Below, piece after piece: positions 9,610-61,446 of a stretch of 64,000 nucleotides of DNA. The translations under genes were made by a program, and so were the position numbers. The notes beneath the pieces are model-generated. The model searched no databases. It was not told where the DNA came from and was given only the letters and a program-made list of their open reading frames with translations. The DNA is from Acidobacteriota bacterium (lineage in GTDB: Bacteria > Acidobacteriota > CAIWXX01). Every line of letters starts with the position of its first letter. Position 1 is the stretch's first letter. The DNA lies in contig JBFMAF010000031.1 of the NCBI GenBank assembly GCA_040755995.1, positions 20,375 to 84,374 on the forward strand, written 5' to 3'.

Positions 9610-10737
9610 CTAGTCCAGGGTCCGAAGCGCTTCGACGATCCTCGACCGCGATGCATTGATGCCCGGGACGATCGCCCCGAGCAGTCCGATCAACACGGCG
9701 ATGCCCATGGCGAAGAGCGCCGTGCCTGGCGTCAGGATGACGGGGACGTACCCGCCGAGGCTTCTGCCCGAGGCCAGCAAGGCGGTCGCGAGCGCGATCC
9801 CGATGCCGCCGCCGACGGCGGCGACGAGGACGAACTCGCCGAGCAGGATTTCCAGGATCTGCCGTTTCCGCAGGCCGAGGCTGCGCAGAATGCCGACCTC
9901 GCGCGTGCGCTCGCGCACGGACATCGACACGCTGTTGGCGGCACCGAGGATGCTGACGAGGATCGTGGCGAGCACCATTCCGGACAGCATCGTCCGCACC
10001 TCGACGAAGTCCTTCAGCTCCTCCTCCTTCGCCGCCCGTTCCGACTGCGTCTTGGTCGGCTTCGGGAAGTTGGCGAGCGCCGCGTCGATGGATCGCGACA
10101 CCGGAGCCACTGAGCCCGGGCTCCTGACCTGAACGATCATGTAGGTGCTCTTCCCCTCGTCGCGCTTCACCCGGGCAAGGTAGCTCTTGTGCAGGAGGAG
10201 CCAGCCGTCGCAGGCGGTGTCGTTGCTGCGGAAGATCCCCGCGACAGTGAACGTGAGGCGATCCTCAACGAGCGAGACGATCTGGCCGAGCTTCCAGCCG
10301 TACTGGTGCGCCAGCCGCGCGCCGACGAGCGCGCCGTCATCGCGCGTGACGAACTCGGCCTCGCTCCCCTCCTCGATCCGAACTTCCTTGAGGCTGCGGA
10401 AGCGGTCGAAATCGACGCCGGCAACGATCACGATGTTCTCTTTGCTGCGGTAAGTATAGATGCCCCGCAGAACTCCTGTGGAGCCGACAACTCCGGGAGT
10501 TGCGGCGATGGTGGACAGGTAGGCATCGAAGACGCGGCTGCTGACGGGGCAGGCCACGTCCTTTTCGTAGACGTTCAGCAGTGAGTCTCCGGCCGAGCTC
10601 ACCAGCGCTCCGAACCCGGCCTCCACCGCCCGCAGCGCGGTGATGACGAAGACCGACAGGCTGACGCCGGCGACGGTCAGAAGAGTGCGGCGGCGGTTTC
10701 TCAGAATGCTCTTGATGATCAGGGGCAGGAATCTCAT
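9610..10737 (-). CDS. ABC transporter permease, FtsX/MacB-like
   Basis: MRFLPLIIKSILRNRRRTLLTVAGV start and a C-terminal REVGILRSLGLRKRQIL FtsX motif. It is a paralog of the downstream permease. Confidence 0.85.
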   Translation of the reverse strand: MRFLPLIIKSILRNRRRTLLTVAGVSLSVFVITALRAVEAGFGALVSSAGDSLLNVYEKDVACPVSSRVFDAYLSTIAATPGVVGSTGVLRGIYTYRSKENIVIVAGVDFDRFRSLKEVRIEEGSEAEFVTRDDGALVGARLAHQYGWKLGQIVSLVEDRLTFTVAGIFRSNDTACDGWLLLHKSYLARVKRDEGKSTYMIVQVRSPGSVAPVSRSIDAALANFPKPTKTQSERAAKEEELKDFVEVRTMLSGMVLATILVSILGAANSVSMSVRERTREVGILRSLGLRKRQILEILLGEFVLVAAVGGGIGIALATALLASGRSLGGYVPVILTPGTALFAMGIAVLIGLLGAIVPGINASRSRIVEALRTLD

Positions 10738-11438
10738 TGTGGCCTCCCTTCCGTGTGCGGCTCGTGCAGGAGCTCGCCCTTGTTGAGGCGCACGAGCCGT
10801 TTGGCGCGGGCCGCGGCGCCCGAGTCATGCGTCACCATCAGGATCGTCTTGTGGAATTCGCGGTTCAGCGTATCGAGCAGGTCCAGGATGTTTCCGGCCG
10901 CGGCTGCGTCGAGGTTGCCGGTCGGCTCGTCGGCGATGATCAGCTTCGGGTCGGTGACGAAGGCGCGCGCCACCGCGGTGCGCTGCTCCTCGCCTCCGCT
11001 CAACTGCCGCGGGTAGTGGTGTGCCCGATGCTGGAGCCCGACGACCTCCAGCGCGGCCAGCGCGCGCCGCCGCCGCTCCTCCTTCGCCATCTCGAACAAC
11101 AGCAGCGGCAGCTCGACGTTCTCCACCGCCGTGAGCACCGGCAACAGGTTGTACTGCTGGAACACGAAGCCGACGTTCGCGGTCCGCCAGGCGGCCAGGC
11201 CGTTGTCGTCGAGATCCGCGATGTCGGTGCCGGCGACCACGACGGAGCCCGAGCTGGGACCGTCGATGCCGCCGACTATGTTGAGCAGCGTCGTCTTGCC
11301 CGAGCCCGACGGGCCCATCAGCGAGACGTAGTCGCCCGCGTCGAGCTCGAGATTGATGTTGGTCAGGACGCTGACTTCGTGGTCACCCCGCCGATAGGTC
11401 TTCGATAGCTGCTTCACGCTGAGAAGGTTGTCGCTCAC
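10734..11438 (-). CDS. ABC transporter ATP-binding protein (MacB/LolD type)
   Basis: Walker A GPSGSGKTT, signature LSGGEEQR and Walker B LIIADEPTGNLD. 4-nt overlap with the permease gene. Confidence 0.92.
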   Translation of the reverse strand: MSDNLLSVKQLSKTYRRGDHEVSVLTNINLELDAGDYVSLMGPSGSGKTTLLNIVGGIDGPSSGSVVVAGTDIADLDDNGLAAWRTANVGFVFQQYNLLPVLTAVENVELPLLLFEMAKEERRRRALAALEVVGLQHRAHHYPRQLSGGEEQRTAVARAFVTDPKLIIADEPTGNLDAAAAGNILDLLDTLNREFHKTILMVTHDSGAAARAKRLVRLNKGELLHEPHTEGRPQ

Positions 11439-11489
11439 TTCTTCCTCCTTTCCTTATCCAATCCACGTTCCGTCCGAGGCACGGGCGGA

Positions 11490-12848
11490 TCACCGGGTCT
11501 CGATCCGCGTCCCATCGCCGAGATTCTCCATCCCCGAGATGACCACCAGATCCCCCTCTCCGAGGCCTCTGGTAACTACCACCCTGTCCGGTTCGCGCGC
11601 GCCGATTTCGATGGCGCGGAGCGCGGCGCGCGAGTCCATGACAAGGAAGACGAACGGCCGGCCACCCCGATCGACGATCGCGCTCGCCGGGATCCCAACG
11701 CCGGCCGGCCCTCGGTCCGGCGAGCGCTCCTCCAGAAACGTGAGCTTGACACTCATGTCGTAGGGAAGGATTCGAGCGGATGCTTCGATCGTCGCCTTCA
11801 CCTCGATCGTGTTCTTGTTTCTGTCGGCGCGCGGCGCGATGCGGGTCACCTCGCCGAGGATCACCTCGCCGGGCCAGGCGTTCGGCGACACCTCGACGGA
11901 CTGGTGGAGCCGTACCTTGCCGATGTCGGTCTCGCTGATGTCGGCTGCGACCTCTTGCTTTCCGAGGTCGGCCATCGACACTACGGGCGAGCCGGCGGCC
12001 AGGGTGTCGTATCCCTCGATGTAGGGCACACCGGGCGCGACGAAGTCACCGACGTCGCTGAACTTCCTTAGAACGCGGCCCGTCACCGGGGCGCGGATCG
12101 TCGCGTAGGCCAGACGGTCGCTCGCGGCAGTCCAGCGCGCTTGCGCGGCGGCCAGCGAGGCCTCGGCCATCTCGATCTCCTCTCTTCGCGGCCCGGCCTC
12201 CGCCATGCTGAGCGAATGATGAGCAGCCGCCAGGTCGCTTTCGCTGACATCGAGCTCGGTGCAGGCCTGATCGAACGCCTGAGCCGAAAGAAAGCCCGAC
12301 TCGAAGAGCGCCTTGCTGCGGACCATCTCGCGCTGCGCCCTCTCCTTGGCTGCCATGAGACCCTGCACCCTGGCTCGTGCCACGGCAACCTCCTCCACGC
12401 GGGTCCCGGCTTGCAGCCGGCTGAGACCGGCCTGGGCGAGCGCGACGTTGGCCCGCGCCTCGGCCTCCTCGACCTCGAAGTCGCGGCTGTCGATTTTCGC
12501 GATGACCTCGCCCTGGCCGATCTCGTCTCCTTCGGCGACGCACAGCGAGACGATCCGCCCCTGGACCTTGGGCACGACGTAGACGACCTTCGCGGCTCGC
12601 ACGTAGCCGCCGGCCGTGAGCGTGGGCGCCGAGCCCTGTGCGCCTGCCGGCGCAGTCACCGTGATCACCTCTACCGGCACCGCCCTTGCCGAAACGATGC
12701 GCCACGTCCCGGCAGCCGTCATGACGGCGGCGGCGACCGCGCCGATCACCAGGTGTTTCCAGCGCCGGGCCCGTTTGGGATCGCCCCGTGTCGCGTTCCG
12801 AATGTGCTGGCTCTTGTCGATCCGCAGACCTTCAAGCAGCTCTTTCAT
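11490..12848 (-). CDS. Efflux transporter periplasmic adaptor (HlyD/MacA family); start taken at MKELLEGL, which is preceded by AGGAGGG
   Basis: N-terminal TM, a coiled-coil hairpin region (EEAEARANVALAQAGLSRLQAG...) and a beta-barrel C-terminus. Confidence 0.85.
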   Translation of the reverse strand: MKELLEGLRIDKSQHIRNATRGDPKRARRWKHLVIGAVAAAVMTAAGTWRIVSARAVPVEVITVTAPAGAQGSAPTLTAGGYVRAAKVVYVVPKVQGRIVSLCVAEGDEIGQGEVIAKIDSRDFEVEEAEARANVALAQAGLSRLQAGTRVEEVAVARARVQGLMAAKERAQREMVRSKALFESGFLSAQAFDQACTELDVSESDLAAAHHSLSMAEAGPRREEIEMAEASLAAAQARWTAASDRLAYATIRAPVTGRVLRKFSDVGDFVAPGVPYIEGYDTLAAGSPVVSMADLGKQEVAADISETDIGKVRLHQSVEVSPNAWPGEVILGEVTRIAPRADRNKNTIEVKATIEASARILPYDMSVKLTFLEERSPDRGPAGVGIPASAIVDRGGRPFVFLVMDSRAALRAIEIGAREPDRVVVTRGLGEGDLVVISGMENLGDGTRIETR

Positions 12849-13576: not shown

Positions 13577-13648
13577 GGTGGCTCAGTATCACCCGACACT
13601 GGATGGCTCACCATACCCGACTCCGGGTGGCTCAATTAGCCCGACTCT
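13577..13648. repeat. Three head-to-tail 24-bp direct repeats
   Basis: GGTGGCTCAGTATCACCCGACACT / GGATGGCTCACCATACCCGACTCC / GGGTGGCTCAATTAGCCCGACTCT. The conserved core is TGGCTCA..N7..CCCGAC. Confidence 0.8.
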
Positions 13649-13695
13649 TGACACCGCAGAAGTCAGAGGGGCTTTGCGATGTAGCTAGTTCGTCG

Positions 13696-14034
13696 TCAAG
13701 GTTGCGAGGGGGGGTTGATACTCTGGTCTTCCTGTGCGGCATCTTGGGTCGGGTCCATGACTGCCCCAATGATCATGAGTGCGCCGGTAAGTCGGTCACG
13801 AATCGTGAACAGGAACGGCCTGTCCAGTTTCAGATGGAAGCGCTCTTCTCCTGTCATCATGCCTCCGTAAACTATCCCGACCAGCGTTTCTGCATTTGCC
13901 AAGATGCCGGCTTCCGTCACCCGGATGTCGACAATCTGGGCCATGTCCGTCAGCCGGGAGCGAGGGATCCGGATCATGCACACGAGATCCCGAAACATCT
14001 CCCGCATGTTCATTTCCTCGAGCTGCCTCCGCAA
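13696..14034 (-). pseudogene. Serpin C-terminal fragment (about the last 100 residues; N-terminal roughly 280 aa absent)
   Basis: VTEAGILANAET (hinge/RCL-like) ... FHLKLDRPFLFTIRDRLTGALMIIGAVMDP matches the serpin C-terminal signature (F.ADRPFLF.IRD..TG.ILF.GRV.NP). No serpin-like sequence appears in any frame upstream. Confidence 0.5.
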
Positions 14035-14116
14035 GTCCTAGCAATCAACCTGGGCGTCGTCGCGATCGCCCTCCTCCTTCCGGGATACCTTGGGCATGGA
14101 TCGAACCCTTTGTCGG

Positions 14117-14742
14117 ATGAGGTGAAACTCGGGTTGGTCGGGCAGTACGTTGTCACGGCCGCTGTTACCTGGGGCATAGTGGCCTTCATCAACGGTAGCC
14201 GAGCCGAGCCACTCAACGCGGGCCGGGCGATGATGCTGACGAGCACCCTGCTTGTCGTCGTCAATACAGCGATCCTCATGATAATGAATGTCCACAGGTT
14301 TCTCTCGCCGGAGGCCTGGGGCGGGGTCGTGGTTGACGTTTCCGTCGGCGGCTGGCTGGTGACGGCCATCGGGTGGCGCCGGTCGCATGAGTTTCAGAAG
14401 TCCCGCGCCGAAGAGACGGGGATCGGGTCCGCCTAGCCTGGCGTTGGGCGGTATCTTCGGTGCACAGAACCTCTGAAACAGTATGAATTCGACCCTCGCC
14501 AGTTCTCCGTCGAGACACTCAAGTTCGACATCACCTGGATCGCTTGGTACGAAGTCCACTTCTGGCTGAACGAGGACGAGTATCAGCTCTTCGGGAATGA
14601 TCGGCCGGCTTTCGCAAGCCTCGCTGAACACTGCGCCGCGGACAAAGGACAGCTGTTCAATCGCGACAAGATAGTCCGGAACAACGGCCCTGGTGGCACT
14701 TCCATCCGGCCTAACCAACCGATCCCCATCTCGGCGATGTGA
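14117..14742 (+). pseudogene. Membrane-plus-soluble ORF interrupted by an in-frame TAG at 14434-14436
   Basis: In one frame, a hydrophobic segment (GQYVVTAAVTWGIVAFI...LLVVVNTAILMIM...WLVTAIGW) ends at TAG. The frame then continues as PGVGRYLRCTEPLKQYEFDPRQFSVETLKFDITWIAWYEVHFWLNEDEYQLFGNDRPAFASLAEHCAADKGQLFNRDKIV... to TGA 14740-42. Third-codon-position GC is higher in this frame than in the antisense 313-aa ORF. The start is uncertain. Confidence 0.3.
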
Positions 14743-14969
14743 TGCTCCGGGCCCTACGCCGTCGTTGCAGAAGCCGGAAGAAGGCACAGAAGACCCGTAC
14801 GTAACGCAGACCCTCACAGCCTTGCGGGCAAACACATTGACACGGGGTTTCATGCTGCATACCATCCTGACGGAAGGACAACAAGCCGCGTCTATCCGGA
14901 ACCAGGATAGACACCGGCTGGGCTTGAATTGAACCAAACCATGCGGCCTCCCGTTAGGCGGAAGACGAC

Positions 14970-15698
14970 ATGTGGCCATTTCGACGAAAGCACCCGGAAC
15001 CAGACACGGGGCTGATCGGACAGTGGCGCCTCGATAAGCGCGATTCCGCTGCCTTGGCCAACTACGGTGATCACGCGATGACCTTCACCTCACACGGGGA
15101 GCTGGTCTACATGACCATAGCCGACCCAGAGATCAGCGGCCGCGTGCTTCTTGTCTATAGCGTAGAAGGATCGCTGCTGATCACCGATCAGCCAAGCGAT
15201 CCCCGACAAGAGCGAACAGTCTACCGCATTCACGGCGACAGGCTGCTTCTTGGCGAACCGCCAGTCATACTGGTTCGAGATCACGCCGAGTCGTCCGATC
15301 CCCTTGCGGGCGCCCTGGCGCTCGGCACCGCGGCGATCGAGCACGGGCTCGGTTCTGCGCATCCCGATTCGGCCTTCGTCCCCTTCCTAATGACGCAGAC
15401 TGCCTCGGGGCGCCAATTGTACCGGTTCGTTACGGATACCGCCGAGGAGGCCAACAAGGCGGCCCATGCACGATTCCGCGAGCTTCGCAGGGAGATCGAG
15501 GTTTCGGCATGGGTGTATGACGGCTACCTCACCGTTGGCCAGGACAAGTTTGACGCGGTACTCGCCGAACTGAGCTCCCGGCGCTCACCAACCGGGCTTC
15601 TTCTCGCACAGCCCTACGCGATCGAGAAGTTCCCCGCCAAACGTGTTGCTCCGTTGCAAACGCGGGAGTGGGATTCGTGGTTTACTTCCGCCTGCTAG
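14970..15698 (+). CDS. Hypothetical protein (242 aa, soluble)
   Basis: Clean ORF with ordinary amino-acid composition. No motif was recognised. Confidence 0.5.
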   Translation: MWPFRRKHPEPDTGLIGQWRLDKRDSAALANYGDHAMTFTSHGELVYMTIADPEISGRVLLVYSVEGSLLITDQPSDPRQERTVYRIHGDRLLLGEPPVILVRDHAESSDPLAGALALGTAAIEHGLGSAHPDSAFVPFLMTQTASGRQLYRFVTDTAEEANKAAHARFRELRREIEVSAWVYDGYLTVGQDKFDAVLAELSSRRSPTGLLLAQPYAIEKFPAKRVAPLQTREWDSWFTSAC

Positions 15699-15705
15699 CC
15701 ATCCC

Positions 15706-16467
15706 ATGTCTGCATTGGCAACTTTCGCAGCAGTAGTCGTTTCAGCCGCGGCAGTTGCGCTCGTGGTAGTGCTAGTGCGCTTCAATCAGAAGCGCCTATA
15801 TATTGCACGATGCGCCGCTGCCGCTGCGCACGAGCAGCTTGAGCGTATCTACTGTCTTGTCGACCAAACTGGGACTACGACGTCGAACGGCTATGTCCTA
15901 GCTCGTACGAACAAGAGAGTGGACAACACAGCTTGCCTCATACCGATCCCCACGGGACTGCCCGACTTTCCATGGGCTGGGAGGGTAGTTGAGGTCAAGG
16001 TAGCCGAGACAGTAGAGTTCCGGTTCGTCAAGTCCGTGGCAGCCGAGCCCTGGCTGCTGGGTCGCGCGTATCGCCCTGTGCGCGTCGCCCGGCACCAGAC
16101 AAAGAACCGCGCCGAGGCTCGAAATACGTTCTCGCCAAGGTGGTACGTGGCCAACAGCAAGGAGTTGTTGGAGGCTCTATGGGCCGTGTGTCCGAAATAC
16201 CCGACCGAACTACTCTCCTACCTGTTGTGCGTCGGCGGGTTGAGCTTCGAATTCGAACCGATCGACCAAGGCCGGATCGGCACCAGTCCGGCCTGGGTTC
16301 AGGATCCCGAGCACCAAACCTGCGACAAGTGCAAGAAGCGGATGTATCTAGTGTTGCAGTTGCCTGGAACGGTGATCAGCAAGAAGGCGTTTCACAGGGG
16401 TACGTTTTTCTTCTTCGGCTGTCGTGCACACCCGAATGAAACCAAGACTCTTGCGCAGTTCACCTGA
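15706..16467 (+). CDS. Hypothetical membrane-anchored protein with a DUF1963 (YwqG)-like C-terminus
   Basis: Start taken at MSALATFAAVVVSAAAVALVVVLV (TM). The C-terminus SPAWVQDPEHQTCDKCKKRMYLVLQLPG...FFFFGCRAHP resembles the YwqG/DUF1963 end motif. Confidence 0.5.
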   Translation: MSALATFAAVVVSAAAVALVVVLVRFNQKRLYIARCAAAAAHEQLERIYCLVDQTGTTTSNGYVLARTNKRVDNTACLIPIPTGLPDFPWAGRVVEVKVAETVEFRFVKSVAAEPWLLGRAYRPVRVARHQTKNRAEARNTFSPRWYVANSKELLEALWAVCPKYPTELLSYLLCVGGLSFEFEPIDQGRIGTSPAWVQDPEHQTCDKCKKRMYLVLQLPGTVISKKAFHRGTFFFFGCRAHPNETKTLAQFT

Positions 16468-16654
16468 AGACGTCTATCCTTTGAGTCGAGCCGGGTCTCG
16501 CGCCCCAGAGCCCCAACCGACCGATCGTAGCGACGATTCCGTGCTGAGATCGGGCTGGAGGCGAGGCTCGCCTTCCAGCCTCAGCTAGAGGAATACTACC
16601 ATCGTAGTAGGAAGCCACCACTGAAACCAAGCCAGGCCACCAACCGGGGTATGC

Positions 16655-16790
16655 TCATACTCCCCTTAGTGGCCTGTGGAAGCGCTCTTCATAGGCCCGT
16701 TTGATCTTGTCGAAGTGATGATAGAGGACGGCGAAGAAAACAGCCTTCCCGGGATGGCGCGGCCTGTAAGGCGCTGGCTTCGCAGATGAG
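16655..16790 (-). mobile_element. Remnant of an IS91-family (Y2/HUH rolling-circle) transposase N-terminus
   Basis: PAPYRPRHPGKAVFFAVLYHHFDKIKRAYEERFHRPLRGV-stop resembles the conserved IS91-type N-terminus (YRPR.P....Y..V..H...F...Y.ERF...YG.LR). The zinc-binding and catalytic parts are absent downstream. Confidence 0.4.
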
Positions 16791-17050
16791 GATTGTAAAG
16801 CGTCCACAGTCCATACATGGACGCAGTGTTGGGGCCACCCGCGCTTGGTGCCTATCGTCTGCAAATCGCAGGACAGCGCGTGTAACCGGACTGTCATCCC
16901 TTTCGCCTAGATACCGAATTGCTGTTGGGCGGAGTTCCTTCTCCCCTATACTGGGCTCGTGCCCGTACCCGTCCCGCACCCAGCGCCAACTCCCGGAAGG
17001 CGAACGCGGACGATCTGCTGGAGACGCCACAAAGGCACCCAAGGCAAGAT

Positions 17051-17108
17051 GAAAAACGAAAAACGCAGAAGGACTCGACTCTTGGATCCGGCATTTCGCA
17101 CTTCGCAC
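17051..17108. repeat. Two heptamer tandem arrays (GAAAAAC x2 + GCAGAAG; TTCGCAC x2)
   Basis: GAAAAACGAAAAACGCAGAAG (17051-17071) and TTCGCACTTCGCAC (17095-17108). The second array ends 4 nt before the -35 box. Confidence 0.7.
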
Positions 17109-17112
17109 TGAT

Positions 17113-17142
17113 TTGACTTCCCCGACCGAGCGCGGGTATTAT
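17113..17142 (+). promoter_or_regulatory. Sigma70-like promoter for the radical SAM gene
   Basis: TTGACT (17113-18), 18-nt spacer, TATTAT (17137-42). A GAGGAGGA RBS precedes the GTG at 17191. Confidence 0.4.
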
Positions 17143-17190
17143 GCGTCCTCGTCCTTGTAATTCCGTTCCGAGGACAGAGGAGGACAGCCG

Positions 17191-18828
17191 GTGAGCACGC
17201 TGAGTTTCTTCAGAAAACGAAAAGTCGACAGGTTTCAGGTAAGGCAGCCGGAGACGACGTACACAGGCGCGAGGATATACCCCCCTCAGAAGGGCCTGCC
17301 CAAGATCACTCAATCTCTATGCCCCGAGTGCACGTCGGTCATAGATGCGCGGGTCTTCGAGGAAGACGGGGCTGTCTTCATGGAGAAGACGTGCCCGCAA
17401 CACGGGTACTGCAAGGACCTCATCTTGTCGGACGCCAAGCTGTACTACAAGATGCAGCAATGGGGATTTGGAGACAACCGCGGCCTCGCGAACCCCGCGG
17501 TGCCGAACGCCGCCAGGTGCCCGGAACAGTGCGGCCTCTGCGGAATGCACACGTCCCACACCGGTCTGGCCAACATCGATCTGACGAACCGCTGCAACCT
17601 GACCTGCCCGGTCTGTTTCGCCAACGCGAACGCGGCGGGCTACCTGTATGAACCGTCGCTCGAGTACGTCCGCAAGATGCTCACGGCCCTTCGTTCGCTA
17701 CAGCCCTGCCCCGCGCGCGTGATCCAGTTCTCAGGCGGAGAGCCCACCATCTACCCGCATTTCTTCGAGGCGTTGAAGATGGCCAGGGAGGTGGGTTTCA
17801 CACACATCCAGTGCGCAACCAACGGGCTGGCGTTCAGCGATATCGAGTTCGCGGCGAAGGCCAAGGAATCCGGCCTTCACACCCTCTACCTCCAGCTCGA
17901 CGGCACCCTCGACACGGTCTACCAGAGGACGCGAGGCGAGGAGCTGGCAGCCGCCAAGCTCAAGTGCATCGAGAACGTCAAGGCCGTCGGCCTCAAGATC
18001 GTCTTCGTCCCCACAATCGTCAAGGGCGTCAACGATCACCAGATCGGCGACATCATCCGCCTGGCCCTGCAGAACATCGAGTGCATCTCCGGGATCAGCT
18101 TCCAGCCCGTGGCGTTCACCGGCCGGATCGCGCGGCGCCAGCGCGAGGCCATGCGATTTACCCTGTCAGACCTCGCGCGCTGCGTCGAAGAGCAGACGGG
18201 ATTGGCAGACCGCTACCGCGATTGGTACCCGCTCGCCTTCACATCGCCCTTCAGCCGCCTCGTCAGCGCCATCCGCGGTTCGGAGACCATGACCCTCACC
18301 TGCCATCCGAACTGCTCGATGGGCACCTACTTCTTCGTAGATCAGGACCGCAACGCGACACCCGTGACGAAGTTCCTGAACTGCGAAGAGATGATGAAGG
18401 ACATGGACCTGCTTGCGCGCAAGACCGGCTCCTCTTCATTCAAGTTCTACTCGCAGCTCAAGGCCTGGAACTCGCTGCGGCGGCATTTCAACGAGAAGGA
18501 GGCGCCCAAAGGGCTCACCTTCAAGCGGTTCCTCGCGACGCTCCAGGGCTTCACCGACAAGCGATACGGCCGCGGCGCCATGGACGGCACCTACACGTAC
18601 AAGACGCTCATGGTAGCGGGTATGCACTTCATGGACCACTACAACTACGACGTCGAACGCGTCAAGCGGTGTGTCATTCATTACGCCGCCCCGAACGGGA
18701 TCGTCTACCCGTTCTGTGCTTACAACTCCGGTCCGACCTTCCGCGAGAAGATCGAAAAGCGATTCTCGGTGCCGATAGACATCAAGGAGGTCGCGAGAGG
18801 CGAGAGGCTGACAGCGGACGACGCATAG
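17191..18828 (+). CDS. Radical SAM protein of the MJ0619 / Tes (GDGT-MAS, tetraether lipid synthase) architecture
   Basis: 545 aa. An N-terminal zinc ribbon (CPECTSVIDARVFEEDGAVFMEKTCPQHG) and a second Cys cluster (CPEQCGLCGMH) are followed by the radical SAM motif NIDLTNRCNLTCPVCFA and QFSGGEPT. The C-terminal block MVAGMHFMDHYNYDVERVKRCVIHYAAPNGIVYPFCAYN is as I recall it for MJ0619-like proteins. Confidence 0.7.
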   Translation: MSTLSFFRKRKVDRFQVRQPETTYTGARIYPPQKGLPKITQSLCPECTSVIDARVFEEDGAVFMEKTCPQHGYCKDLILSDAKLYYKMQQWGFGDNRGLANPAVPNAARCPEQCGLCGMHTSHTGLANIDLTNRCNLTCPVCFANANAAGYLYEPSLEYVRKMLTALRSLQPCPARVIQFSGGEPTIYPHFFEALKMAREVGFTHIQCATNGLAFSDIEFAAKAKESGLHTLYLQLDGTLDTVYQRTRGEELAAAKLKCIENVKAVGLKIVFVPTIVKGVNDHQIGDIIRLALQNIECISGISFQPVAFTGRIARRQREAMRFTLSDLARCVEEQTGLADRYRDWYPLAFTSPFSRLVSAIRGSETMTLTCHPNCSMGTYFFVDQDRNATPVTKFLNCEEMMKDMDLLARKTGSSSFKFYSQLKAWNSLRRHFNEKEAPKGLTFKRFLATLQGFTDKRYGRGAMDGTYTYKTLMVAGMHFMDHYNYDVERVKRCVIHYAAPNGIVYPFCAYNSGPTFREKIEKRFSVPIDIKEVARGERLTADDA

Positions 18829-18851
18829 CCCCATCGGAACACGAGAAAGAC

Positions 18852-18890
18852 AGGCCCTGGCCTTCGTTCCGGAAGGCTGGGGCCTTTTGC
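18852..18890 (+). terminator. Intrinsic terminator after the radical SAM gene
   Basis: AGGCCC-T-GGCCTTC-GTTCCG-GAAGGCT-G-GGGCCT followed by TTTTGC. Confidence 0.55.
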
Positions 18891-18983
18891 TTCCGGCCGA
18901 TCTCCCTTCTTCCAGCTCACCGTGTCTCCGCGTCCCCGCGTCTTCTTGACTGCCTCGCCCCATCGTTGTAGTCTGCGCCGAAG

Positions 18984-20630
18984 ATGCAACGAAGACTGCA
19001 TCGGTGGTTCTACGCCTTGTCGGTTGGCCTGGCATGCCTGACGGCGGCGGCCACCGCGGCGCAGGAGCGGCTGTCGTTCGTCTGCGTCGCGTTGGATGTG
19101 GAGACGCGACAGGCGGACAAGAAGCTCCAGGAGTATCTCTACCAGAAGGCAGGCGTGAGCTTCGCGCCGGAGGAGCTCGAGTACGAGCGTGTAGTCGATC
19201 GCCTCACGCACTGGCGCGACGAGGACGGAGCCTATGTGGCGCGGGTGACGCCGTATGTCTATGTGCTGGCGGAGATGCTGGGCGCCGAGTTCGAGCCTCT
19301 GGCGACATACCTCAGCCCCACTACGCACGCTAGGACCTATCACGCCTATTTCGTGGTCAATCGCAAGGACTTCGCGGCTCAGCCCTCGCTCGCAGACGTC
19401 GTGCGTCTCCTGGGCGAGCGGAAGGACCGCGCGAAGTTCATCTACCACAGCCAGTTCAGCACATCGAGCTTCTTCCTGCCGTCGCTATACTTCCGCAGGA
19501 ACAGGATCTACGAGATGCCTGAGAGTACAGAATCGCTCATAGCGATCGCGACTGAGCGGATTCCGGAGAACAGCAGCTCGAAGCTTGTTGAACACGTGGC
19601 GCGCGGCGAGGCCGATCTGGCGGCGGTATGGGACGGATCGAAGACCAAGTTCGATTCGGAGCACGGCGGCGCCTTGTACGAGGAGTTCGGAAAGAAAGTC
19701 TACTTCGTACAGCTCCCTACAACTCTCCCGAACGACCTGCTCCTGTGCTCCTCCTCGCTCGATCAGGCCGCAAAAGCGCGCCTCCGCGAAGCCATCCGGA
19801 AGATGAAGCAGGACGAGATCGATATCGGCGACTTCCTCTGCTGGCAGGTCATCACCGAGGCTACCGATGCCCGCCAGGCCCTGGCGGACCTTCGCTGGCT
19901 TGCGCGCGAGCGCATCCCGCCGGTCACCGTCGAAATTCGACTGCGTACTTCGAATCCGGATGCCTCGTCCCCATCCCAGCTCACGGATGCCGCGCGGCAG
20001 GCCGTGAGGCTCGCGGGCACCGAGTTCGTCCTCTTCGATCAAGACTTCCACGAGCATATCGACTTCACCTGGACCATCGAGCCAATCCATGATGGGGCCG
20101 TCGTACTACACAGCAGCATACCCGGCTCGGACATCGAGGACCAGGTCTTCCGCATCAGCTTCAGGGACGCAGAGGACCTGACCAGGCGCCTCGTGTCGAT
20201 CGTGCAATCCAGGCTCCATAGAATCAGATACGTCTGGTCCCTGAGCACTGGCGCGCCGATCGTAATTCGAGACATGGCGTTCTCGCTTCCGCCCGGCTCC
20301 CACGTCAAGGTCCAGAAGATAGCCTGGCTGGACCCCGAAAAGAACAAGTTCCGCGCCGGGCCCGTGTTCAACGCCAGCATACGCAGCACCGGATACTACA
20401 AGTACGAGCTCGACCCCGAGGACTTCGTTCAACACGGCGAGTCCCTAGTCGGGCTCGATTCCATGAGCAACACGGCATATCGCGTGATCCTGCTCCGGTC
20501 GGCGCGGGAGCGACTCGTGTTCCGCGTGCTGACGGGTGTCTTCTTGGGACTACTTGTTCTCGCGGCTATCGGTCTCGTCTGGGACCTCGCGCGCACACCT
20601 AACGGGGGAGAGGTCGAGGAACAGCTCTAG
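18984..20630 (+). CDS. Secreted, C-terminally anchored protein with an N-terminal PhnD/SsuA-like periplasmic-binding-protein fold
   Basis: Signal peptide MQRRLHRWFYALSVGLACLTAAATAAQE. aa 30-270 loosely match the PhnD pattern (VTPYVYVLAE..., AKFIYHSQFSTSSFFLPSLYF). An unknown middle domain precedes a C-terminal TM (VLTGVFLGLLVLAAIGLVW). Confidence 0.5.
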   Translation: MQRRLHRWFYALSVGLACLTAAATAAQERLSFVCVALDVETRQADKKLQEYLYQKAGVSFAPEELEYERVVDRLTHWRDEDGAYVARVTPYVYVLAEMLGAEFEPLATYLSPTTHARTYHAYFVVNRKDFAAQPSLADVVRLLGERKDRAKFIYHSQFSTSSFFLPSLYFRRNRIYEMPESTESLIAIATERIPENSSSKLVEHVARGEADLAAVWDGSKTKFDSEHGGALYEEFGKKVYFVQLPTTLPNDLLLCSSSLDQAAKARLREAIRKMKQDEIDIGDFLCWQVITEATDARQALADLRWLARERIPPVTVEIRLRTSNPDASSPSQLTDAARQAVRLAGTEFVLFDQDFHEHIDFTWTIEPIHDGAVVLHSSIPGSDIEDQVFRISFRDAEDLTRRLVSIVQSRLHRIRYVWSLSTGAPIVIRDMAFSLPPGSHVKVQKIAWLDPEKNKFRAGPVFNASIRSTGYYKYELDPEDFVQHGESLVGLDSMSNTAYRVILLRSARERLVFRVLTGVFLGLLVLAAIGLVWDLARTPNGGEVEEQL

Positions 20631-20670
20631 ATAGCTCTCGTGACAACAGGCAGCGTGGGGCGTTGGATGA

Positions 20671-20768
20671 GGAGAAACGGAGAAACGGCGAAACGGGGAA
20701 ACGGAGAGTGGCGACTGCGGGCGCCGCTCGGATCGCCGCTTCTCCGATTCCCCCCTTCTCCGTTTCGG
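20671..20768. repeat. Octamer tandem array and its inverted counterpart forming an imperfect hairpin of about 100 nt
   Basis: Left arm GGAGAAAC GGAGAAAC GGCGAAAC GGGGAAAC GGAGAG (20671-20708). Centre GGCGA...TCGCC. Right arm GCTTCTCC GATTCCCC CCTTCTCC GTTTCGG (20738-20768). Confidence 0.7.
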
Positions 20769-20804
20769 CTGCCAGACACGACAGCCAGCCGGACGTGAGA
20801 TCCG

Positions 20805-22511
20805 ATGAACGAGCAAGAGCAACTCACTCGCAAGCTCGCGCCCAGCAAGATGATCGGCCACTATGCCGTCATCGACCAGCTCGGTCGCGGCGGAATGGGC
20901 GAGGTCTTCGTCGCAAGAGACACCAAGCTCGACCGCAAGGTCGCTCTGAAGGTGCTTGCGCACGAGGTGACGGCGGATGCCGAACGGCTGCAGCGGTTCC
21001 AGCGCGAGGCCAAGATGCTTGCGGCGCTCAACCACCCGAACATCGTCACGATCTTCTCGGTGGAGGAGGCCGAGGAGCTTCATCTGCTGGTGATGGAGCT
21101 GGTCGAGGGCAAGACACTACGGCAGGTTATCCCGAGAGGCGGGTTGCCGCTGGCCAAGTTCTTCGACATCGCCTTGCCGCTCGCCGAGGCCCTCAGCGCC
21201 GCGCACGAGCGCGGCATCACGCACAGGGACCTCAAGCCGGAAAACGTAATGGTCACGGACTCCGGCCGCGTGAAGGTGCTCGACTTCGGCCTGGCCAAGG
21301 TCTCCCACGGCCACGCCTATTCGGAATCCACTCACGAGAGCTCCACCAAGGCAGTCACACAGCTGGGGGTGATCCTGGGCACAGTGCCCTATATGTCGCC
21401 CGAACAGGCGCAGGGCAAGCCGGTCGATCACCGGTCCGACATCTTCTCGCTCGGCATCGTGCTATACGAGATGCTCGCAGGCGAGAGGCCGTTCAAGGGC
21501 GAGACCGTCTCCGACCTGATCGCCTCGATCCTGCGCGATACGCCCGGATCGGTCAGCAGCCTCCGCACCGGCGTGCCGCGGGAACTGGGAAGGATCGTCC
21601 GCCACTGCCTGGAGAAGAATCCGCAAGACCGCATTCAGTCCGCGCTCGACCTGCACATCCAGCTGAAGGGCCTCTGGAAGGATCTCGAGCTGGAGCGCGC
21701 GATCACAAGCGGCAAGCGCCGCTACTCGACCACCCGGCGAAGGCCTCTTATCCCGGTCAACCTCTTCGGCTGGCTCGTCAATACACGATGGGGCCTGACT
21801 GCGCTCCTCGCCGGCGTCCTGGCGTTCAATTACCTGGAGACCTCGACCGAGACGGCGCTCAAGGCAAGCTACGGCTGGGGAATGGACCTCGGTTATCACC
21901 TCGCGCGAAGCGCCCACTGGTTCGAATGGATGTTCAGCTTCGATCGGCACGACGTGACCAACACACTGGCCGTCTATGGCTACTCGATCTCGTACTTCAT
22001 GCTCTTTCCGGTTCTCGTGATCCTCGTCGGTCTCGCGCTTGCGCGCCGCGAGGACCTGGCGCCGTATCGCGTTTTCGCGATCGCAATCAGCCTAACGTAC
22101 GCTGTCAGCCTGCCGTTCTTTCTCCTGTTCCCGGTGCCCGAACGATGGTCATTCCCCGACGCCGAAGCAGTGCTGCTCTCGGATCTGTGGACATCCAAGC
22201 TGATCGAGATGTTTCGGCCGATCAGCGGACTGGACAACTGCTTCCCGAGCTTCCACGTCGCGACAACCGTTGACATGGTCCTCGCCTCATACCTCTTCCG
22301 GCTCCGCACCCGCTCGACCGTCCTGATCCTCGGCCTGACCATCATCCTCTCGACCTTTGTCCTCGGCATCCACTGGCTGGTGGACATCGTTGCCGGCGTA
22401 GCGACGGGCGTTATCAGCATTGCCATCGCGATGCGCGCCGACCGGTCGCTCGAACGGCCGATCGGCAGTGCCGGCAGCGGTGCACTCGCAGAATCACAGC
22501 AGTCCGCGTAG
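20805..22511 (+). CDS. Ser/Thr protein kinase fused to a PAP2_C-type (lipid phosphate phosphatase / phosphosphingolipid synthase-like) membrane domain
   Basis: Kinase motifs GRGGMGEVF, VALKVL, HRDLKPENV, DFGLAK and YMSPEQ. The C-terminal 6-TM region has CFPSFHV and GIHWLVDIVAG (PAP2 C2/C3-type motifs). Confidence 0.85.
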   Translation: MNEQEQLTRKLAPSKMIGHYAVIDQLGRGGMGEVFVARDTKLDRKVALKVLAHEVTADAERLQRFQREAKMLAALNHPNIVTIFSVEEAEELHLLVMELVEGKTLRQVIPRGGLPLAKFFDIALPLAEALSAAHERGITHRDLKPENVMVTDSGRVKVLDFGLAKVSHGHAYSESTHESSTKAVTQLGVILGTVPYMSPEQAQGKPVDHRSDIFSLGIVLYEMLAGERPFKGETVSDLIASILRDTPGSVSSLRTGVPRELGRIVRHCLEKNPQDRIQSALDLHIQLKGLWKDLELERAITSGKRRYSTTRRRPLIPVNLFGWLVNTRWGLTALLAGVLAFNYLETSTETALKASYGWGMDLGYHLARSAHWFEWMFSFDRHDVTNTLAVYGYSISYFMLFPVLVILVGLALARREDLAPYRVFAIAISLTYAVSLPFFLLFPVPERWSFPDAEAVLLSDLWTSKLIEMFRPISGLDNCFPSFHVATTVDMVLASYLFRLRTRSTVLILGLTIILSTFVLGIHWLVDIVAGVATGVISIAIAMRADRSLERPIGSAGSGALAESQQSA

Positions 22512-56985: not shown

Positions 56986-57930
56986 ATGGAAACGTCTCAA
57001 CCGGACGCCACGTCATCCGATCAGTGCGGATCGTCTCCGGCCACACAAGTGGAAAAGGACAGTAGGGCCACCGGGGTCGCCCTGGTGCTCTCCGCGGGTT
57101 TCTTCGGATTCTTTGCGCATGCGGGCTTTCTGATCGCTCTCGATGAGCTGCGCATCGGCTACCGGGCGATCGCCGGATCTAGCGCCGGTGCGCTGGTCGC
57201 TGCGTTCGCGGCTGCCGGAATGCAACCGCGCGACATCGCCCGGCTGCTGGTGAGCCTGAAGAAGGAGGACTTCTGGGATCCGCCCGGCATCTTCGGCATC
57301 GCGCGAGCTGTGCTCAGGCGCGGACGCGGTTGGAGCGGGTACCTGGCAGGCGATAGGTTCGAGGAACTTGTCGAGCGCCACCTGCCGGTGAAGACATTCG
57401 AGCAGTGCGCCAGGAAACTCTACATCACGGCACTCAACCTGACCGAAGGCGGAGACGAGACGTTTTTCGAAGGCCCGATTGCTGAGAAGGTGCGGGCATC
57501 CTGCAGCTATCCGTTCCTGTTCTCGACCAAGCGAATCGGTCGCAGCCAGTACTGGGACGGCGGGGTGACGGCGAAGGTGCCGATGGAGGTGATGGTGGAA
57601 CGGGAGAGGCCGCAGCTCACGATCGTACACTATCTCGAGTCCGCGTCTTCCGAGGAGCCGGGCGAAATCATGGATCGGCCGCTGGCGCCCCTGAAACTGG
57701 TGGACCGTGCGATGAGCATAGCTCGCCGGGAGATCGAGCAGAGCCGCAGGAATGCACATGACAGGCTGTGCCAAGGCTCCATCCGCTACATCACCCCCGA
57801 GCTGCCGCGATCGGGCCCGGACCGGCTTCACCTCGGAGCCGAGATAATCGAGAGGTCGCGCGAGCAGGCCGTGCGCGCGCTGAGCGATTGCGGCAGGCCG
57901 GGTGCCGCTTGCCCGGCCTCACCAGGCTAG
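56986..57930 (+). CDS. Patatin-like phospholipase
   Basis: LSAGFFGFFAHAG oxyanion region, the GSSAG nucleophile elbow and a DGG catalytic Asp motif. Confidence 0.85.
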   Translation: METSQPDATSSDQCGSSPATQVEKDSRATGVALVLSAGFFGFFAHAGFLIALDELRIGYRAIAGSSAGALVAAFAAAGMQPRDIARLLVSLKKEDFWDPPGIFGIARAVLRRGRGWSGYLAGDRFEELVERHLPVKTFEQCARKLYITALNLTEGGDETFFEGPIAEKVRASCSYPFLFSTKRIGRSQYWDGGVTAKVPMEVMVERERPQLTIVHYLESASSEEPGEIMDRPLAPLKLVDRAMSIARREIEQSRRNAHDRLCQGSIRYITPELPRSGPDRLHLGAEIIERSREQAVRALSDCGRPGAACPASPG

Positions 57931-61059: not shown

Positions 61060-61073
61060 CTTGCGCTTTCGGT

Positions 61074-61146
61074 GGGCCGTTAGCTCAGCCGGCAGAGCAC
61101 CTGCCTTTTAAGCAGGGGGTCGCGGGTCCGAATCCCGCACGGCTCA
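61074..61146 (+). tRNA. tRNA-Lys (anticodon UUU)
   Basis: Hand-folded cloverleaf: acceptor GGGCCGT/ACGGCTC (one G-U), D arm GCTC..GAGC, anticodon arm CCTGC-CTTTTAA-GCAGG, T arm GCGGG-TCCGAAT-CCCGC, discriminator A. Confidence 0.93.
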
Positions 61147-61215
61147 ATTCCAACGGAAACGATGCAGCCGTTGGCCGACATGGTTCGGCCGGAAGAGATG
61201 GAGCGTTAGGAATGC

Positions 61216-61370: not shown

Positions 61371-61446
61371 GTCCCCATCGTCTAGAGGCCTAGGACACCG
61401 CCCTTTCAAGGCGGTAACGGGAGTTCGAATCTCCTTGGGGACGCCA
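61371..61446 (+). tRNA. tRNA-Glu (anticodon UUC), CCA encoded
   Basis: Acceptor GTCCCCA/TGGGGAC, anticodon arm CCGCC-CTTTCAA-GGCGG, T arm GGGAG-TTCGAAT-CTCCT, discriminator G, then CCA. Confidence 0.93.

What the first reader, a model, noticed from the sequence alone, without database searches (positions are those of the whole stretch)
17113..18890. Stand-alone bacterial homologue of the archaeal tetraether lipid synthase (Tes / GDGT-MAS, MJ0619 family)
The 545-aa protein has the full architecture I associate with MJ0619-type radical SAM enzymes:
- N-terminal zinc ribbon CPEC...CPQHG
- extra Cys cluster CPEQCGLCG
- CNLTCPVC radical SAM site
- conserved C-terminal MHFMD.YNYD..R...C.IHY..P.G...PFC.YN block
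In archaea this family joins two lipid tails to make membrane-spanning GDGTs. Bacterial homologues have been noted in the literature as candidates for branched GDGT or membrane-spanning lipid synthesis, but as far as I know their function is not experimentally settled. Here the gene has its own predicted promoter and terminator, so it appears monocistronic. It is followed by an envelope-anchored PBP-like protein and a kinase fused to a lipid-phosphate-transferase-like domain. That makes a loose lipid- or envelope-themed neighbourhood.
Basis: partly seen in the sequence, partly recalled or inferred. Interest (0 to 1): 0.7.

Follow-up and report, generated by a model that had tools for sequence, protein, structure and literature searches.

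The report
Acidobacterial tetraether lipid synthase (Tes) homologue
This is an intact, stand-alone bacterial copy of the enzyme archaea use to weld two lipid tails into a membrane-spanning lipid; such copies are already known in soil Acidobacteria as unproven candidates for making the "branched GDGT" lipids used in palaeoclimate work, so this is a solid but ordinary new member.

Summary
It passes NCBI's curated Tes equivalog model (563 bits vs cutoff 450). It aligns end to end with the solved GDGT-MAS/Tes of M. jannaschii (7TOL, E=6e-128, 42% identity). An AlphaFold model superposes on 7TOM/7TOL (TM 0.80/0.87). All 15 metal ligands of the four cofactor sites are conserved, here and in 119 bacterial homologues.

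The closest relatives (65-75% identity) are Acidobacteriota MAGs (Bryobacterales, Terriglobales). NCBI already names several of them "tetraether lipid synthase Tes".

The gene is plausibly monocistronic: 724- and 155-nt flanking gaps, a 14-bp terminator hairpin and a promoter-like site. The "lipid/envelope neighbourhood" is not conserved in any of 80 related loci, nor in the closest relative. The 64-kb window holds no ether-lipid, Mss or Grs genes.

Acidobacterial Tes homologues were reported in 2022 as brGDGT-synthase candidates. Papers up to 2025-26 still call the activity unconfirmed.

Best reading: a true Tes-family enzyme that couples the terminal carbons of iso-branched lipid tails. Verdict: new member of a known kind, low to moderate interest.

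The parts
17113..17142 (+). Sigma-70-like promoter candidate, TTGACT-18 nt-TATTAT
   Evidence: 10 of 12 matches, and the only site in 16400-19200. Shuffles give 0.7 sites, so this is suggestive only. It lies 49 nt upstream of the start codon.
17179..17184 (+). Shine-Dalgarno-like GGAGGA, 6 nt before the GTG start
   Evidence: Read directly from the sequence.
17191..18828 (+). Tes-family radical SAM gene, 545 aa (stop codon included)
   Evidence: NCBIfam NF045702 563 bits (cutoff 450). 7TOL E=5.7e-128 over residues 30-530. Foldseek 7TOM E=1.1e-46, TM 0.80/0.87.
17191..17307 (+). N-terminal extension specific to the bacterial clade (residues 1-39; conserved F15-Q-V-x-Q-P-E-T-T-Y-T-G-x-x-I29 and G35-L-P-K)
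   Evidence: It lies outside the NCBIfam Tes model, whose match starts at residue 40. P20, T23, G26, I29, L36 and P37 are invariant in 57-119 homologues. It is absent from MJ0619 and from representatives below about 46% identity. pLDDT is low in the model. Function unknown.
17320..17403 (+). Rubredoxin-type iron site, C44-X2-C47-X20-C68-X2-H71 (inside Pfam Zn_ribbon_HMPTM, residues 37-79)
   Evidence: Same spacing as MJ0619 C9X2C12X20C33X2H36. Pfam PF23545 E=1.2e-18.
17518..17550 (+). Ligands of the N-terminal auxiliary [4Fe-4S] cluster: C110, C114, C117, H120
   Evidence: They align with MJ0619 C73/C77/C80 and H83. The paper names only 'a conserved histidine'; H83 is my inference from the alignment. 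All four are invariant in 119 homologues.
17581..18066 (+). Radical SAM core (residues 131-292) with CX3CX2C = C135/C139/C142
   Evidence: Pfam PF04055 E=1.5e-24. Ligands align with MJ0619 C98/C102/C105. SAM/5'-dA contacts G183, Q305, T310 and R312 are conserved; MJ0619 S271 is A308 here.
18313..18717 (+). C-terminal auxiliary [4Fe-4S] domain: C375, C494, C509 and M478 (equivalent to the labile Met439 of MJ0619)
   Evidence: M478 aligns with Met439, which the paper names. The three Cys ligands are inferred: they are the only C-terminal cysteines conserved between MJ0619 (C338/C455/C470), the window protein and all 119 homologues.
18337..18597 (+). Divergent helical region (residues 383-469), the probable lipid-pocket 'cap'
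   Evidence: Only 20% identical to MJ0619, against 47-53% in the other domains. Predicted helices 398-411, 418-432, 444-455 and 457-460. Assigning it to the second lipid pocket is an inference from the description in PMC9433317.
18852..18895 (+). Intrinsic-terminator-like hairpin plus T-rich tail, 24 nt after the stop codon
   Evidence: 14-bp stem, 9 G-C pairs, 6-nt loop, then TTTTGCTT. The next gene starts at 18984.

Best explanation

Shown here: it has the whole four-domain, four-cofactor machinery. [quoted passage not shown] It also has the GDGT-MAS fold. It has no transmembrane segment, so it is a soluble or peripheral enzyme like MJ0619.

Inferred mechanism, taken from the mechanism established for MJ0619:
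1. Reductive cleavage of SAM gives a 5'-deoxyadenosyl radical.
2. The radical abstracts H from the terminal methyl carbon of a saturated lipid tail held in a hydrophobic tunnel.
3. The lipid radical is parked as a C-S bond on a sulfide of the C-terminal cluster.
4. A second SAM generates a radical on a second tail, which attacks that carbon and forms a C(sp3)-C(sp3) bond.
5. Two such bonds (four SAM) join two glycerolipids into one membrane-spanning lipid.

Inferred substrate: in this bacterium, most likely iso-branched (iso-C15-type) alkyl or acyl glycerolipids. Their iso-terminus has the same structure as a phytanyl end. The products would be brGTGT/brGDGT-type or iso-diabolic-acid-type lipids. 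Whether the tails are ether- or ester-linked when they are coupled is not decided by any evidence here.

The gene is transcribed on its own and has no conserved partner genes.
For: -: NCBIfam Tes equivalog, 563 bits against a cutoff of 450, model positions 2-485 of 486.
- 7TOL/7TOM, E=5.7e-128, residues 30-530 aligned to chain residues 15-509.
- 42% identity to MJ0619, and all 15 ligands are conserved (C44/C47/C68/H71; C110/C114/C117/H120; C135/C139/C142; C375/C494/C509/M478). They are invariant or nearly invariant in 119 bacterial homologues.
- AF2 model pTM 0.79. Foldseek puts 7TOM/7TOL first (E about 1e-46, TM 0.80 to the query, 0.87-0.88 to the target, about 500 columns). The next hit, MoaA, reaches TM 0.30 on the radical SAM core only.
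- among 1.84 billion representatives only about six clusters score higher than MJ0619 would. 70 of 101 diverse full-length relatives keep all 15 ligands.
- the relatives are Bryobacterales, Solibacteraceae and Terriglobales. Bryobacterales is the order of Ca. Solibacter usitatus, which makes brGDGTs and brGTGTs in culture and carries Tes homologues (PMC10087280; PMC8941075).
- (PMC9433317): MJ0619 binds E. coli ester phospholipids in its pocket and binds head groups non-specifically, so bacterial-type lipids are sterically acceptable.
- the terminator, the flanking gaps, and the similarly isolated genes in relatives.
Against: - No bacterial Tes homologue has been shown experimentally to make any lipid (PMC11868695; PMC13459092).
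- Tes homologues were found in only 3 of 14 iso-diabolic-acid-producing Acidobacteria (PMC13159169). Membrane-spanning lipid synthesis in the phylum therefore does not generally depend on Tes.
- The 64-kb window contains no PlsA/Ger, elb, Mss, Grs or B12-radical-SAM genes.
- No lipid gene is a conserved neighbour in 80 loci.
- The helical region most likely to line the second lipid pocket is only 20% identical to MJ0619, so the substrate may differ.
- The organism is uncultured as far as these data show, and its lipids are unknown.
Confidence: 0.65

Rival explanations
1. It is a Tes-fold enzyme with the same radical C-C coupling chemistry, but it acts on a hydrophobic substrate other than membrane glycerolipid tails. 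Examples would be another long-chain alkyl metabolite, or only intramolecular macrocyclisation. In that case it does not produce brGDGT-type membrane-spanning lipids.
For: The putative lipid-cap region is only 20% identical to MJ0619. A clade-specific N-terminal extension of unknown role is present. There are no lipid-pathway neighbours. Tes presence correlates poorly with iso-diabolic acid production in Acidobacteria.
Against: The whole fold, including the C-terminal domain, superposes on GDGT-MAS. All catalytic cofactor sites are retained. The clade is concentrated in the order that contains the one robust cultured brGDGT producer. No alternative substrate is suggested by any data.
Confidence: 0.2
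2. It makes archaeal-type isoprenoid GDGTs in a bacterium, acting on archaeol-like diethers.
For: It passes the model built for the archaeal enzyme and is 42% identical to MJ0619.
Against: No bacterium has been shown to produce isoprenoid GDGTs (PMC8941075). No GGGP/DGGGP synthase or geranylgeranyl reductase genes are in the window, although the rest of the genome was not seen.
Confidence: 0.03
3. It is a pterin C-methyltransferase (7,8-dihydro-6-hydroxymethylpterin dimethyltransferase, 'HMPTM'). JGI annotates some homologues this way and the Pfam domain name implies it.
For: JGI names for several homologues. The Pfam domain is named Zn_ribbon_HMPTM.
Against: That annotation descends from an earlier assignment of MJ0619. 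Lloyd et al. could not corroborate it, and the structure contradicts it: the pocket is a narrow hydrophobic tunnel occupied by lipids (PMC9433317). Acidobacteria are not known, to my knowledge, to make methanopterin.
Confidence: 0.01
4. It belongs to the sister family TrsS (radical SAM selenoprotein) or is an inactive relic.
For: TrsS is the third-best NCBIfam hit, and the best outside the two Tes models.
Against: TrsS scores 335 bits against a cutoff of 490 and covers only residues 39-337. The ORF is intact, has normal codon bias, and keeps every ligand. The family is under strong conservation, with 62% mean column identity.
Confidence: 0.01

Closest known systems
GDGT-MAS / Tes of Methanocaldococcus jannaschii (MJ0619; PDB 7TOL, 7TOM)
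   Same: Length class and four-domain order are the same. So are the rubredoxin-type CX2CX20CX2H site, the CX3CX2C+H N-terminal cluster, the CX3CX2C radical SAM cluster, and the C-terminal cluster with three Cys and a labile Met. Identity is 42%, and the model-to-structure TM-score is 0.87.
   Different: The host is a bacterium whose lipids are expected to be fatty-acid-derived rather than isoprenoid. The window protein has a 39-residue conserved N-terminal extension that MJ0619 lacks. The helical region at residues 383-469 is only 20% identical. The SAM-contact Ser271 is Ala here. Activity is untested.
Acidobacterial Tes homologues (Ca. Solibacter usitatus Ellin6076, Ca. Koribacter versatilis Ellin345; Zeng et al. 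2022, Halamka et al. 2022)
   Same: Same phylum and class. The published homologues are 40-42% identical to archaeal Tes, the same level as here, and the same brGDGT-synthase role is proposed for them. NCBI already names MAG proteins 66-68% identical to this one 'tetraether lipid synthase Tes'.
   Different: I could not retrieve those two named sequences, so direct identity to them was not measured. The best database relative of the window protein is 75% identical and unnamed.
Mss, the membrane-spanning lipid synthase of Thermotoga maritima and Thermoanaerobacter ethanolicus (Sahonero-Canavesi et al. 2022)
   Same: It is also a radical SAM enzyme that couples two lipid tails tail to tail to give bacterial membrane-spanning lipids. 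It was proven by expression in E. coli.
   Different: It is a different radical SAM family. Tes queries find nothing in those genomes, and mss is absent from Acidobacteria. It works only anaerobically. No Mss model was available to score here.
TrsS (NCBIfam NF045646, radical SAM (seleno)protein)
   Same: It shares the N-terminal zinc-ribbon/rubredoxin domain, the N-terminal cluster and the radical SAM core (residues 39-337 align).
   Different: It lacks the Tes C-terminal domain. The score of 335 is below its 490 cutoff.
Long Tes paralogue found in tandem with the window-type gene in loci L044 and L046
   Same: It is 35-36% identical to the window protein over about 490 residues and sits immediately upstream of a window-type Tes.
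   Different: It is 700-740 aa long. [quoted passage not shown] No such paralogue is present in the window.

Membership tests
Tes / GDGT-MAS (NCBIfam NF045702; MJ0619 family) | Full-length match to the curated equivalog model above its trusted cutoff | tested here: met
   563.1 bits against a cutoff of 450. Residues 40-528 match model positions 2-485 of 486.
Tes / GDGT-MAS (NCBIfam NF045702; MJ0619 family) | Rubredoxin-type mononuclear Fe site, C-X2-C-X20-C-X2-H | tested here: met
   C44-X2-C47-X20-C68-X2-H71, the same spacing as MJ0619 C9/C12/C33/H36.
Tes / GDGT-MAS (NCBIfam NF045702; MJ0619 family) | N-terminal auxiliary [4Fe-4S] cluster ligated by C-X3-C-X2-C plus a conserved His | tested here: met
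   C110, C114, C117 and H120 align with MJ0619 C73, C77, C80 and H83. All four are invariant in 119 homologues.
Tes / GDGT-MAS (NCBIfam NF045702; MJ0619 family) | Radical SAM CX3CX2C cluster and the SAM/5'-dA contact residues | tested here: met
   C135/C139/C142 are present. G183, Q305, T310, R312, N145 and A146 are conserved. One contact differs (S271 of MJ0619 is A308 here), and Ala is also the majority residue among the bacterial homologues.
Tes / GDGT-MAS (NCBIfam NF045702; MJ0619 family) | C-terminal auxiliary [4Fe-4S] cluster with a labile Met ligand (the site of the C-S intermediate) | tested here: met
   M478 aligns with Met439. C375, C494 and C509 are the only C-terminal Cys conserved with MJ0619 and invariant in 119 homologues. 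The identity of the three Cys ligands is inferred from conservation; it was not read from coordinates.
Tes / GDGT-MAS (NCBIfam NF045702; MJ0619 family) | Overall four-domain fold of GDGT-MAS | tested here: met
   AF2 model pTM 0.79. Foldseek 7TOM E=1.1e-46, TM 0.80 (query) and 0.87 (target) over 497 columns. No other PDB entry exceeds TM 0.33 normalised to the query.
Tes / GDGT-MAS (NCBIfam NF045702; MJ0619 family) | Long hydrophobic substrate tunnel and a second, all-hydrophobic lipid pocket | tested here: inconclusive
   The helices are predicted in the right place and the fold superposes.
Tes / GDGT-MAS (NCBIfam NF045702; MJ0619 family) | Catalysis of C(sp3)-C(sp3) coupling between terminal carbons of two lipid tails | not testable with these tools
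   This needs expression or in vitro assays. No bacterial homologue has been assayed, according to PMC11868695 and PMC13459092.
Tes / GDGT-MAS (NCBIfam NF045702; MJ0619 family) | Substrate is a saturated isoprenoid diether (archaeol-type) lipid | not testable with these tools
   This is unlikely in an acidobacterium. The window holds no archaeal-type lipid genes, but the rest of the genome was not seen.
TrsS (NCBIfam NF045646) | Match above the curated cutoff over the full model | tested here: not met
   334.7 bits against a cutoff of 490. Only residues 39-337 match model positions 2-296 of 441.
Mss (bacterial membrane-spanning lipid synthase, Thermotoga type) | Sequence homology to T. maritima or T. 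ethanolicus Mss | not tested
   No Mss model or sequence was available in the libraries used. The literature states that Mss and Tes do not detect each other and that Acidobacteria lack mss.

The most novel reading that the evidence does not exclude
This acidobacterial Tes clade is marked by a conserved 39-residue N-terminal extension and a re-modelled helical lipid cap. It could be the long-sought brGDGT synthase of aerobic soil Acidobacteria. It would couple iso-C15 alkyl tails of bacterial G3P lipids without any dedicated operon partners. If so, the gene could serve as a direct genetic marker for the source organisms of brGDGT palaeothermometer lipids.
Probability: 0.5. Interest if true: 0.55.

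Novelty: new member of a known kind. Interest (0 to 1): 0.3.

Why it matters
brGDGTs are among the most widely used terrestrial palaeotemperature and pH proxies. The enzyme that makes their membrane-spanning C-C bond in Acidobacteria is still unproven. Tes homologues are the leading candidate.

This gene adds one more intact, fully equipped example, from a lineage about 25-35% diverged from database relatives. Two points help with experimental design. First, the gene is stand-alone across the clade, so single-gene expression is a fair test. Second, the clade differs from the archaeal enzyme mainly in an N-terminal extension and the putative lipid cap.

It does not open the question further than the homologues in the cultured brGDGT producer Ca. 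Solibacter usitatus already do.

Tried and rejected
- Exact look-up of the window protein's source contig found no record. The rest of the genome could therefore not be screened for PlsA/Ger, elb, Grs or iso-fatty-acid genes.
- Test of functional linkage with the downstream PBP-like protein (18984-20630) and the Ser/Thr kinase-PAP2 fusion (20805-22511). Neither these nor any other window neighbour occurs beside Tes in 80 acidobacterial loci. The closest relative goes straight from Tes to a DegT aminotransferase. Rejected.
- De novo search for any conserved Tes neighbour. The commonest is a 263-aa multi-pass membrane protein, divergently transcribed, in 23 of 80 loci. It looks TSUP/TauE-like on reading the sequence, but this was not scanned. 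The others are FtsX-type permeases, a HemW-like radical SAM, an NRAMP-like transporter and murC/ftsA-like genes. They look like lineage synteny, not a lipid operon.
- Search for a riboswitch or RNA element in the 724-nt upstream spacer. Nothing was found in Rfam.
- Attempt to name the nearest relatives through cluster members. No names or accessions were returned.
- Whole-window Pfam and NCBIfam annotation for ether-lipid or GDGT-modifying genes. None was found. The only other radical SAM gene (59643-60833) matches no curated family.
- Per-member family labelling of the diverse representatives was not possible, because the library carries no names. Ligand patterns and identity to MJ0619 were used instead.
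- I ran no further search on an independent taxonomic marker. The phylum assignment therefore rests on the Tes relatives alone.
Full report
OBSERVATION. The window has a single long ORF at 17191..18828 on the + strand: 545 aa, a GTG start, and GGAGGA 6 nt upstream. Its GC3 is 0.85, like the other genes of this 63% G+C window. One is a sigma-70-like site, TTGACT-18-TATTAT at 17113-17142. The other is a terminator-like hairpin at 18852-18885, with a 14-bp stem, 9 G-C pairs and a TTTTGCTT tail. The promoter call is weak statistically, at 1 site against 0.7 expected in shuffles. The hairpin is strong. The gene is separated from its same-strand neighbours by 724 nt upstream and 155 nt downstream, so a monocistronic unit is plausible.

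FAMILY ASSIGNMENT. Pfam finds Zn_ribbon_HMPTM (residues 37-79) and Radical_SAM (residues 131-292). NCBIfam's curated equivalog model 'tetraether lipid synthase Tes' (NF045702) matches end to end at 563 bits against a trusted cutoff of 450. The sister family TrsS reaches only 335 bits against a cutoff of 490, and only over the N-terminal 300 residues. All other radical SAM families score below 62 bits. Against all PDB sequences, the only strong hit is GDGT-MAS of M. jannaschii (7TOL/7TOM), at E=5.7e-128 with residues 30-530 aligned to chain residues 15-509. I built an AlphaFold2 model from 58 homologues (pTM 0.79). Its low-confidence stretches coincide with the cluster-binding loops, as expected without cofactors. 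In a Foldseek search of the PDB, 7TOM and 7TOL come first with E about 1e-46, TM 0.80 normalised to the query and 0.87-0.88 to the target, over about 500 columns. The next hit, MoaA, covers only the radical SAM core at TM 0.30.

RESIDUE-LEVEL TEST. Lloyd et al. (PMC9433317) define the enzyme by four metallocofactors: a rubredoxin-type Fe (C9X2C12X20C33X2H36), [Fe4S4]N (C73, C77, C80 and a conserved His), the radical SAM cluster, and [Fe4S4]C with the labile Met439. I aligned the window protein, the 7TOL sequence and 119 homologues. The sites map as follows:
- Rubredoxin-type Fe: C44/C47/C68/H71.
- [Fe4S4]N: C110/C114/C117/H120.
- Radical SAM cluster: C135/C139/C142.
- [Fe4S4]C: M478 plus C375/C494/C509.
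These positions are invariant or nearly invariant in the 119 bacterial homologues. The SAM/5'-dA contacts Gly145, Gln268, Thr273 and Arg275 are conserved. Ser271 is Ala here and in most bacterial homologues. Overall identity to MJ0619 is 42%.

DIFFERENCES FROM THE ARCHAEAL ENZYME. Identity is 47-53% in the rubredoxin, N-cluster, radical SAM and C-cluster parts. It falls to 20% in residues 383-469. The model predicts amphipathic-looking helices there, and I infer this is the lipid-pocket cap that the structure paper describes. The protein also has a 39-residue N-terminal extension with a conserved core (F-Q-V-x-Q-P-E-T-T-Y-T-G-x-x-I ... G-L-P-K). The extension lies outside the NCBIfam model and is absent from MJ0619. 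Among 101 diverse full-length relatives, the aligned N-terminal extension occurs only in the clusters at least 46% identical to the window protein; the strict motif itself matches only the window protein and three acidobacterial homologues at 65-67% identity. No transmembrane segment is predicted.

BREADTH AND PLACEMENT. More than 6,000 database proteins match at E<1e-20. The best are 74-75% identical. The bulk at 65-70% come from Terriglobia, Bryobacteraceae and Acidobacteriia MAGs, and NCBI already names several of them 'tetraether lipid synthase Tes'. A scan of one genome per species found 366 encoding loci, and 79 of the top 80 are labelled Acidobacteriota (Bryobacterales, Solibacteraceae, Terriglobales); the exception is L024, a 3-kb contig binned as Castellaniella sp.. 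Bryobacterales includes Ca. Solibacter usitatus. In an exhaustive search of 1.84 billion 50%-identity representatives, 595 clusters match at E<=1e-30. MJ0619's 431 bits would rank it about seventh in that list. Acidobacterial members are 42-44% identical to MJ0619, while MJ0619's own nearest clusters are only 46-50% identical to it. 70 of the 101 full-length representatives keep all 15 ligands. No functionally different family lies between the window protein and the characterised enzyme.

GENE CONTEXT. I annotated about 50 genes across the window:
- trpF/C/D/E, followed by a MoCF-type gene.
- PMT-like glycosyltransferases.
- A MacB/FtsX-ABC-HlyD efflux set.
- ArsR.
- Three unannotatable ORFs with lower GC3.
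- Tes.
- A phosphonate-binding-fold protein with a C-terminal anchor.
- A Ser/Thr kinase fused to a PAP2 phosphatase domain.
- A long glycan / amino-sugar cluster (DegT x2, GNAT, GT2, GT1, FkbM methyltransferase, Wzx-like flippase, epimerases).
- FeoB, DtxR-FeoA, Rrf2 and a porin.
- A patatin-like lipase, an SDR and an unclassified radical SAM/SPASM protein.
There is no PlsA/Ger, elb, Mss, Grs or B12-radical-SAM gene. None of the window's neighbours lies beside Tes in any of the 80 related loci. The closest relative (74% identity) runs straight from Tes to a DegT aminotransferase, so the PBP-like/kinase-PAP2 pair is lineage-specific. The commonest neighbour in relatives is a divergently transcribed 263-aa membrane protein, in 23 of 80 loci. 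The rest is lineage synteny. In relatives, same-strand neighbours sit a median of about 170 nt away on either side. Tes is therefore a stand-alone gene across this clade.

LITERATURE STATUS.
- Zeng et al. 2022 (PMC8941075) reported 456 bacterial Tes homologues. The top two came from Ca. Koribacter versatilis and Ca. Solibacter usitatus, at 40-42% identity to the archaeal query. They proposed these as brGDGT synthases.
- Halamka et al. 2022 (PMC10087280) showed that S. usitatus makes brGDGTs, brGTGTs and iso-C15 mono- and diethers. They proposed Tes-mediated diether condensation.
- Sahonero-Canavesi et al. 2022 (PMC13159169) proved that a different radical SAM enzyme, Mss, does this job in Thermotoga and Clostridia. 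They found no mss in Acidobacteria, and Tes in only 3 of 14 iso-diabolic-acid producers.
- Papers from 2024 to 2026 still describe bacterial Tes activity as unconfirmed.
A targeted search for experimental proof found none.

MECHANISM. What is shown here is the complete Tes cofactor set and fold. The rest is inferred by homology with the mechanism established for MJ0619. The 5'-deoxyadenosyl radical abstracts H from the terminal carbon of a saturated tail. The lipid radical bonds to a sulfide of the C-terminal cluster. A second SAM-derived radical on another tail attacks that carbon, forming the C-C bond. Two bonds and four SAM give a tetraether-type macrocycle. The substrate assignment is also an inference: iso-branched C15 tails, whose iso-terminus has the same structure as a phytanyl end. 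MJ0619 accommodates E. coli ester phospholipids and binds head groups non-specifically. Neither ether-first nor ester-first order can therefore be excluded.

RIVALS. The rivals are: a Tes-fold enzyme with another hydrophobic substrate (about 0.2); isoprenoid GDGT synthesis in a bacterium (about 0.03); the obsolete pterin-methylase annotation (about 0.01); and TrsS or an inactive relic (about 0.01).

VERDICT. This is a new, fairly divergent member of an already recognised and already auto-annotated group. It would not surprise a specialist, and it does not make the open brGDGT question more testable than the homologues in cultured S. usitatus do. Interest 0.3.

DEAD ENDS. These led nowhere: the source-contig look-up, the names of the nearest relatives, the Rfam scan of the upstream spacer and the search for conserved partner genes.

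Noticed in passing
window 59643-60833 (-), with 57930-59510 (-) and 56986-57927 (+): A 397-aa radical SAM + SPASM protein reaches no curated NCBIfam family (best hit AhbD, 97 bits against a cutoff of 500) and has only weak PDB sequence hits (E about 1e-5). It sits next to a 527-aa SDR with a thioester-reductase-like NAD_binding_4 match and near a patatin-like lipase. The GMGT synthase Gms is a radical SAM-SPASM enzyme with reported acidobacterial homologues. Whether this gene is one was not tested. It lies 41 kb from Tes, whereas published bacterial gms genes cluster with tes or mss.
   Followed up: partly
L044:7519-9615 with 9775-11409; L046:7605-9827 with 10001-11638: Two Solibacteraceae/Bryobacterales MAG loci carry tandem Tes paralogues. 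The downstream gene is the window type (65-68% identity). The upstream one is 700-740 aa and only 35-36% identical. [quoted passage not shown]
   Followed up: partly
window 17191-17307 (Tes residues 1-39): A conserved N-terminal extension (FQVxQPETTYTGxxI...GLPK) is specific to the bacterial clade. It is absent from MJ0619 and from the more distant representatives. Its function is unknown and its pLDDT is low.
   Followed up: partly
window 18984-22511 (+): Two adjacent genes: a phosphonate-binding-fold periplasmic protein with a C-terminal membrane anchor, and a Ser/Thr kinase fused to a multi-pass PAP2 lipid-phosphatase domain. The pair sits between Tes and a DegT aminotransferase, which are directly adjacent in the closest relative. 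Whether the two genes form a recurrent pair elsewhere was not examined.
   Followed up: no
window 13603-17190: Three ORFs (277, 242 and 274 aa) have no Pfam match and lower GC3 (0.66-0.70, against about 0.8 elsewhere). They are followed by a 724-nt spacer with no Rfam match. G+C dips locally to 0.60, so this may be an accessory or recently acquired segment.
   Followed up: partly
window 22541-50773: A large glycan / amino-sugar biosynthesis region: two DegT-family aminotransferases (one WecE-like at 574 bits), GNAT, GT2 x2, GT1, an FkbM methyltransferase, a Wzx-like flippase, several PMT-like glycosyltransferases, an NAD-dependent epimerase/dehydratase, and an 899-aa protein with InlB B-repeats. 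An unusually long 539-aa ThyX-like protein with duplicated Thy1 matches lies at 42445-44064.
   Followed up: no
window 61073-61147 and 61371-61446 (+): tRNA-Lys (UUU) and tRNA-Glu (UUC) genes. These are the only Rfam matches at gathering score in the window.
   Followed up: yes
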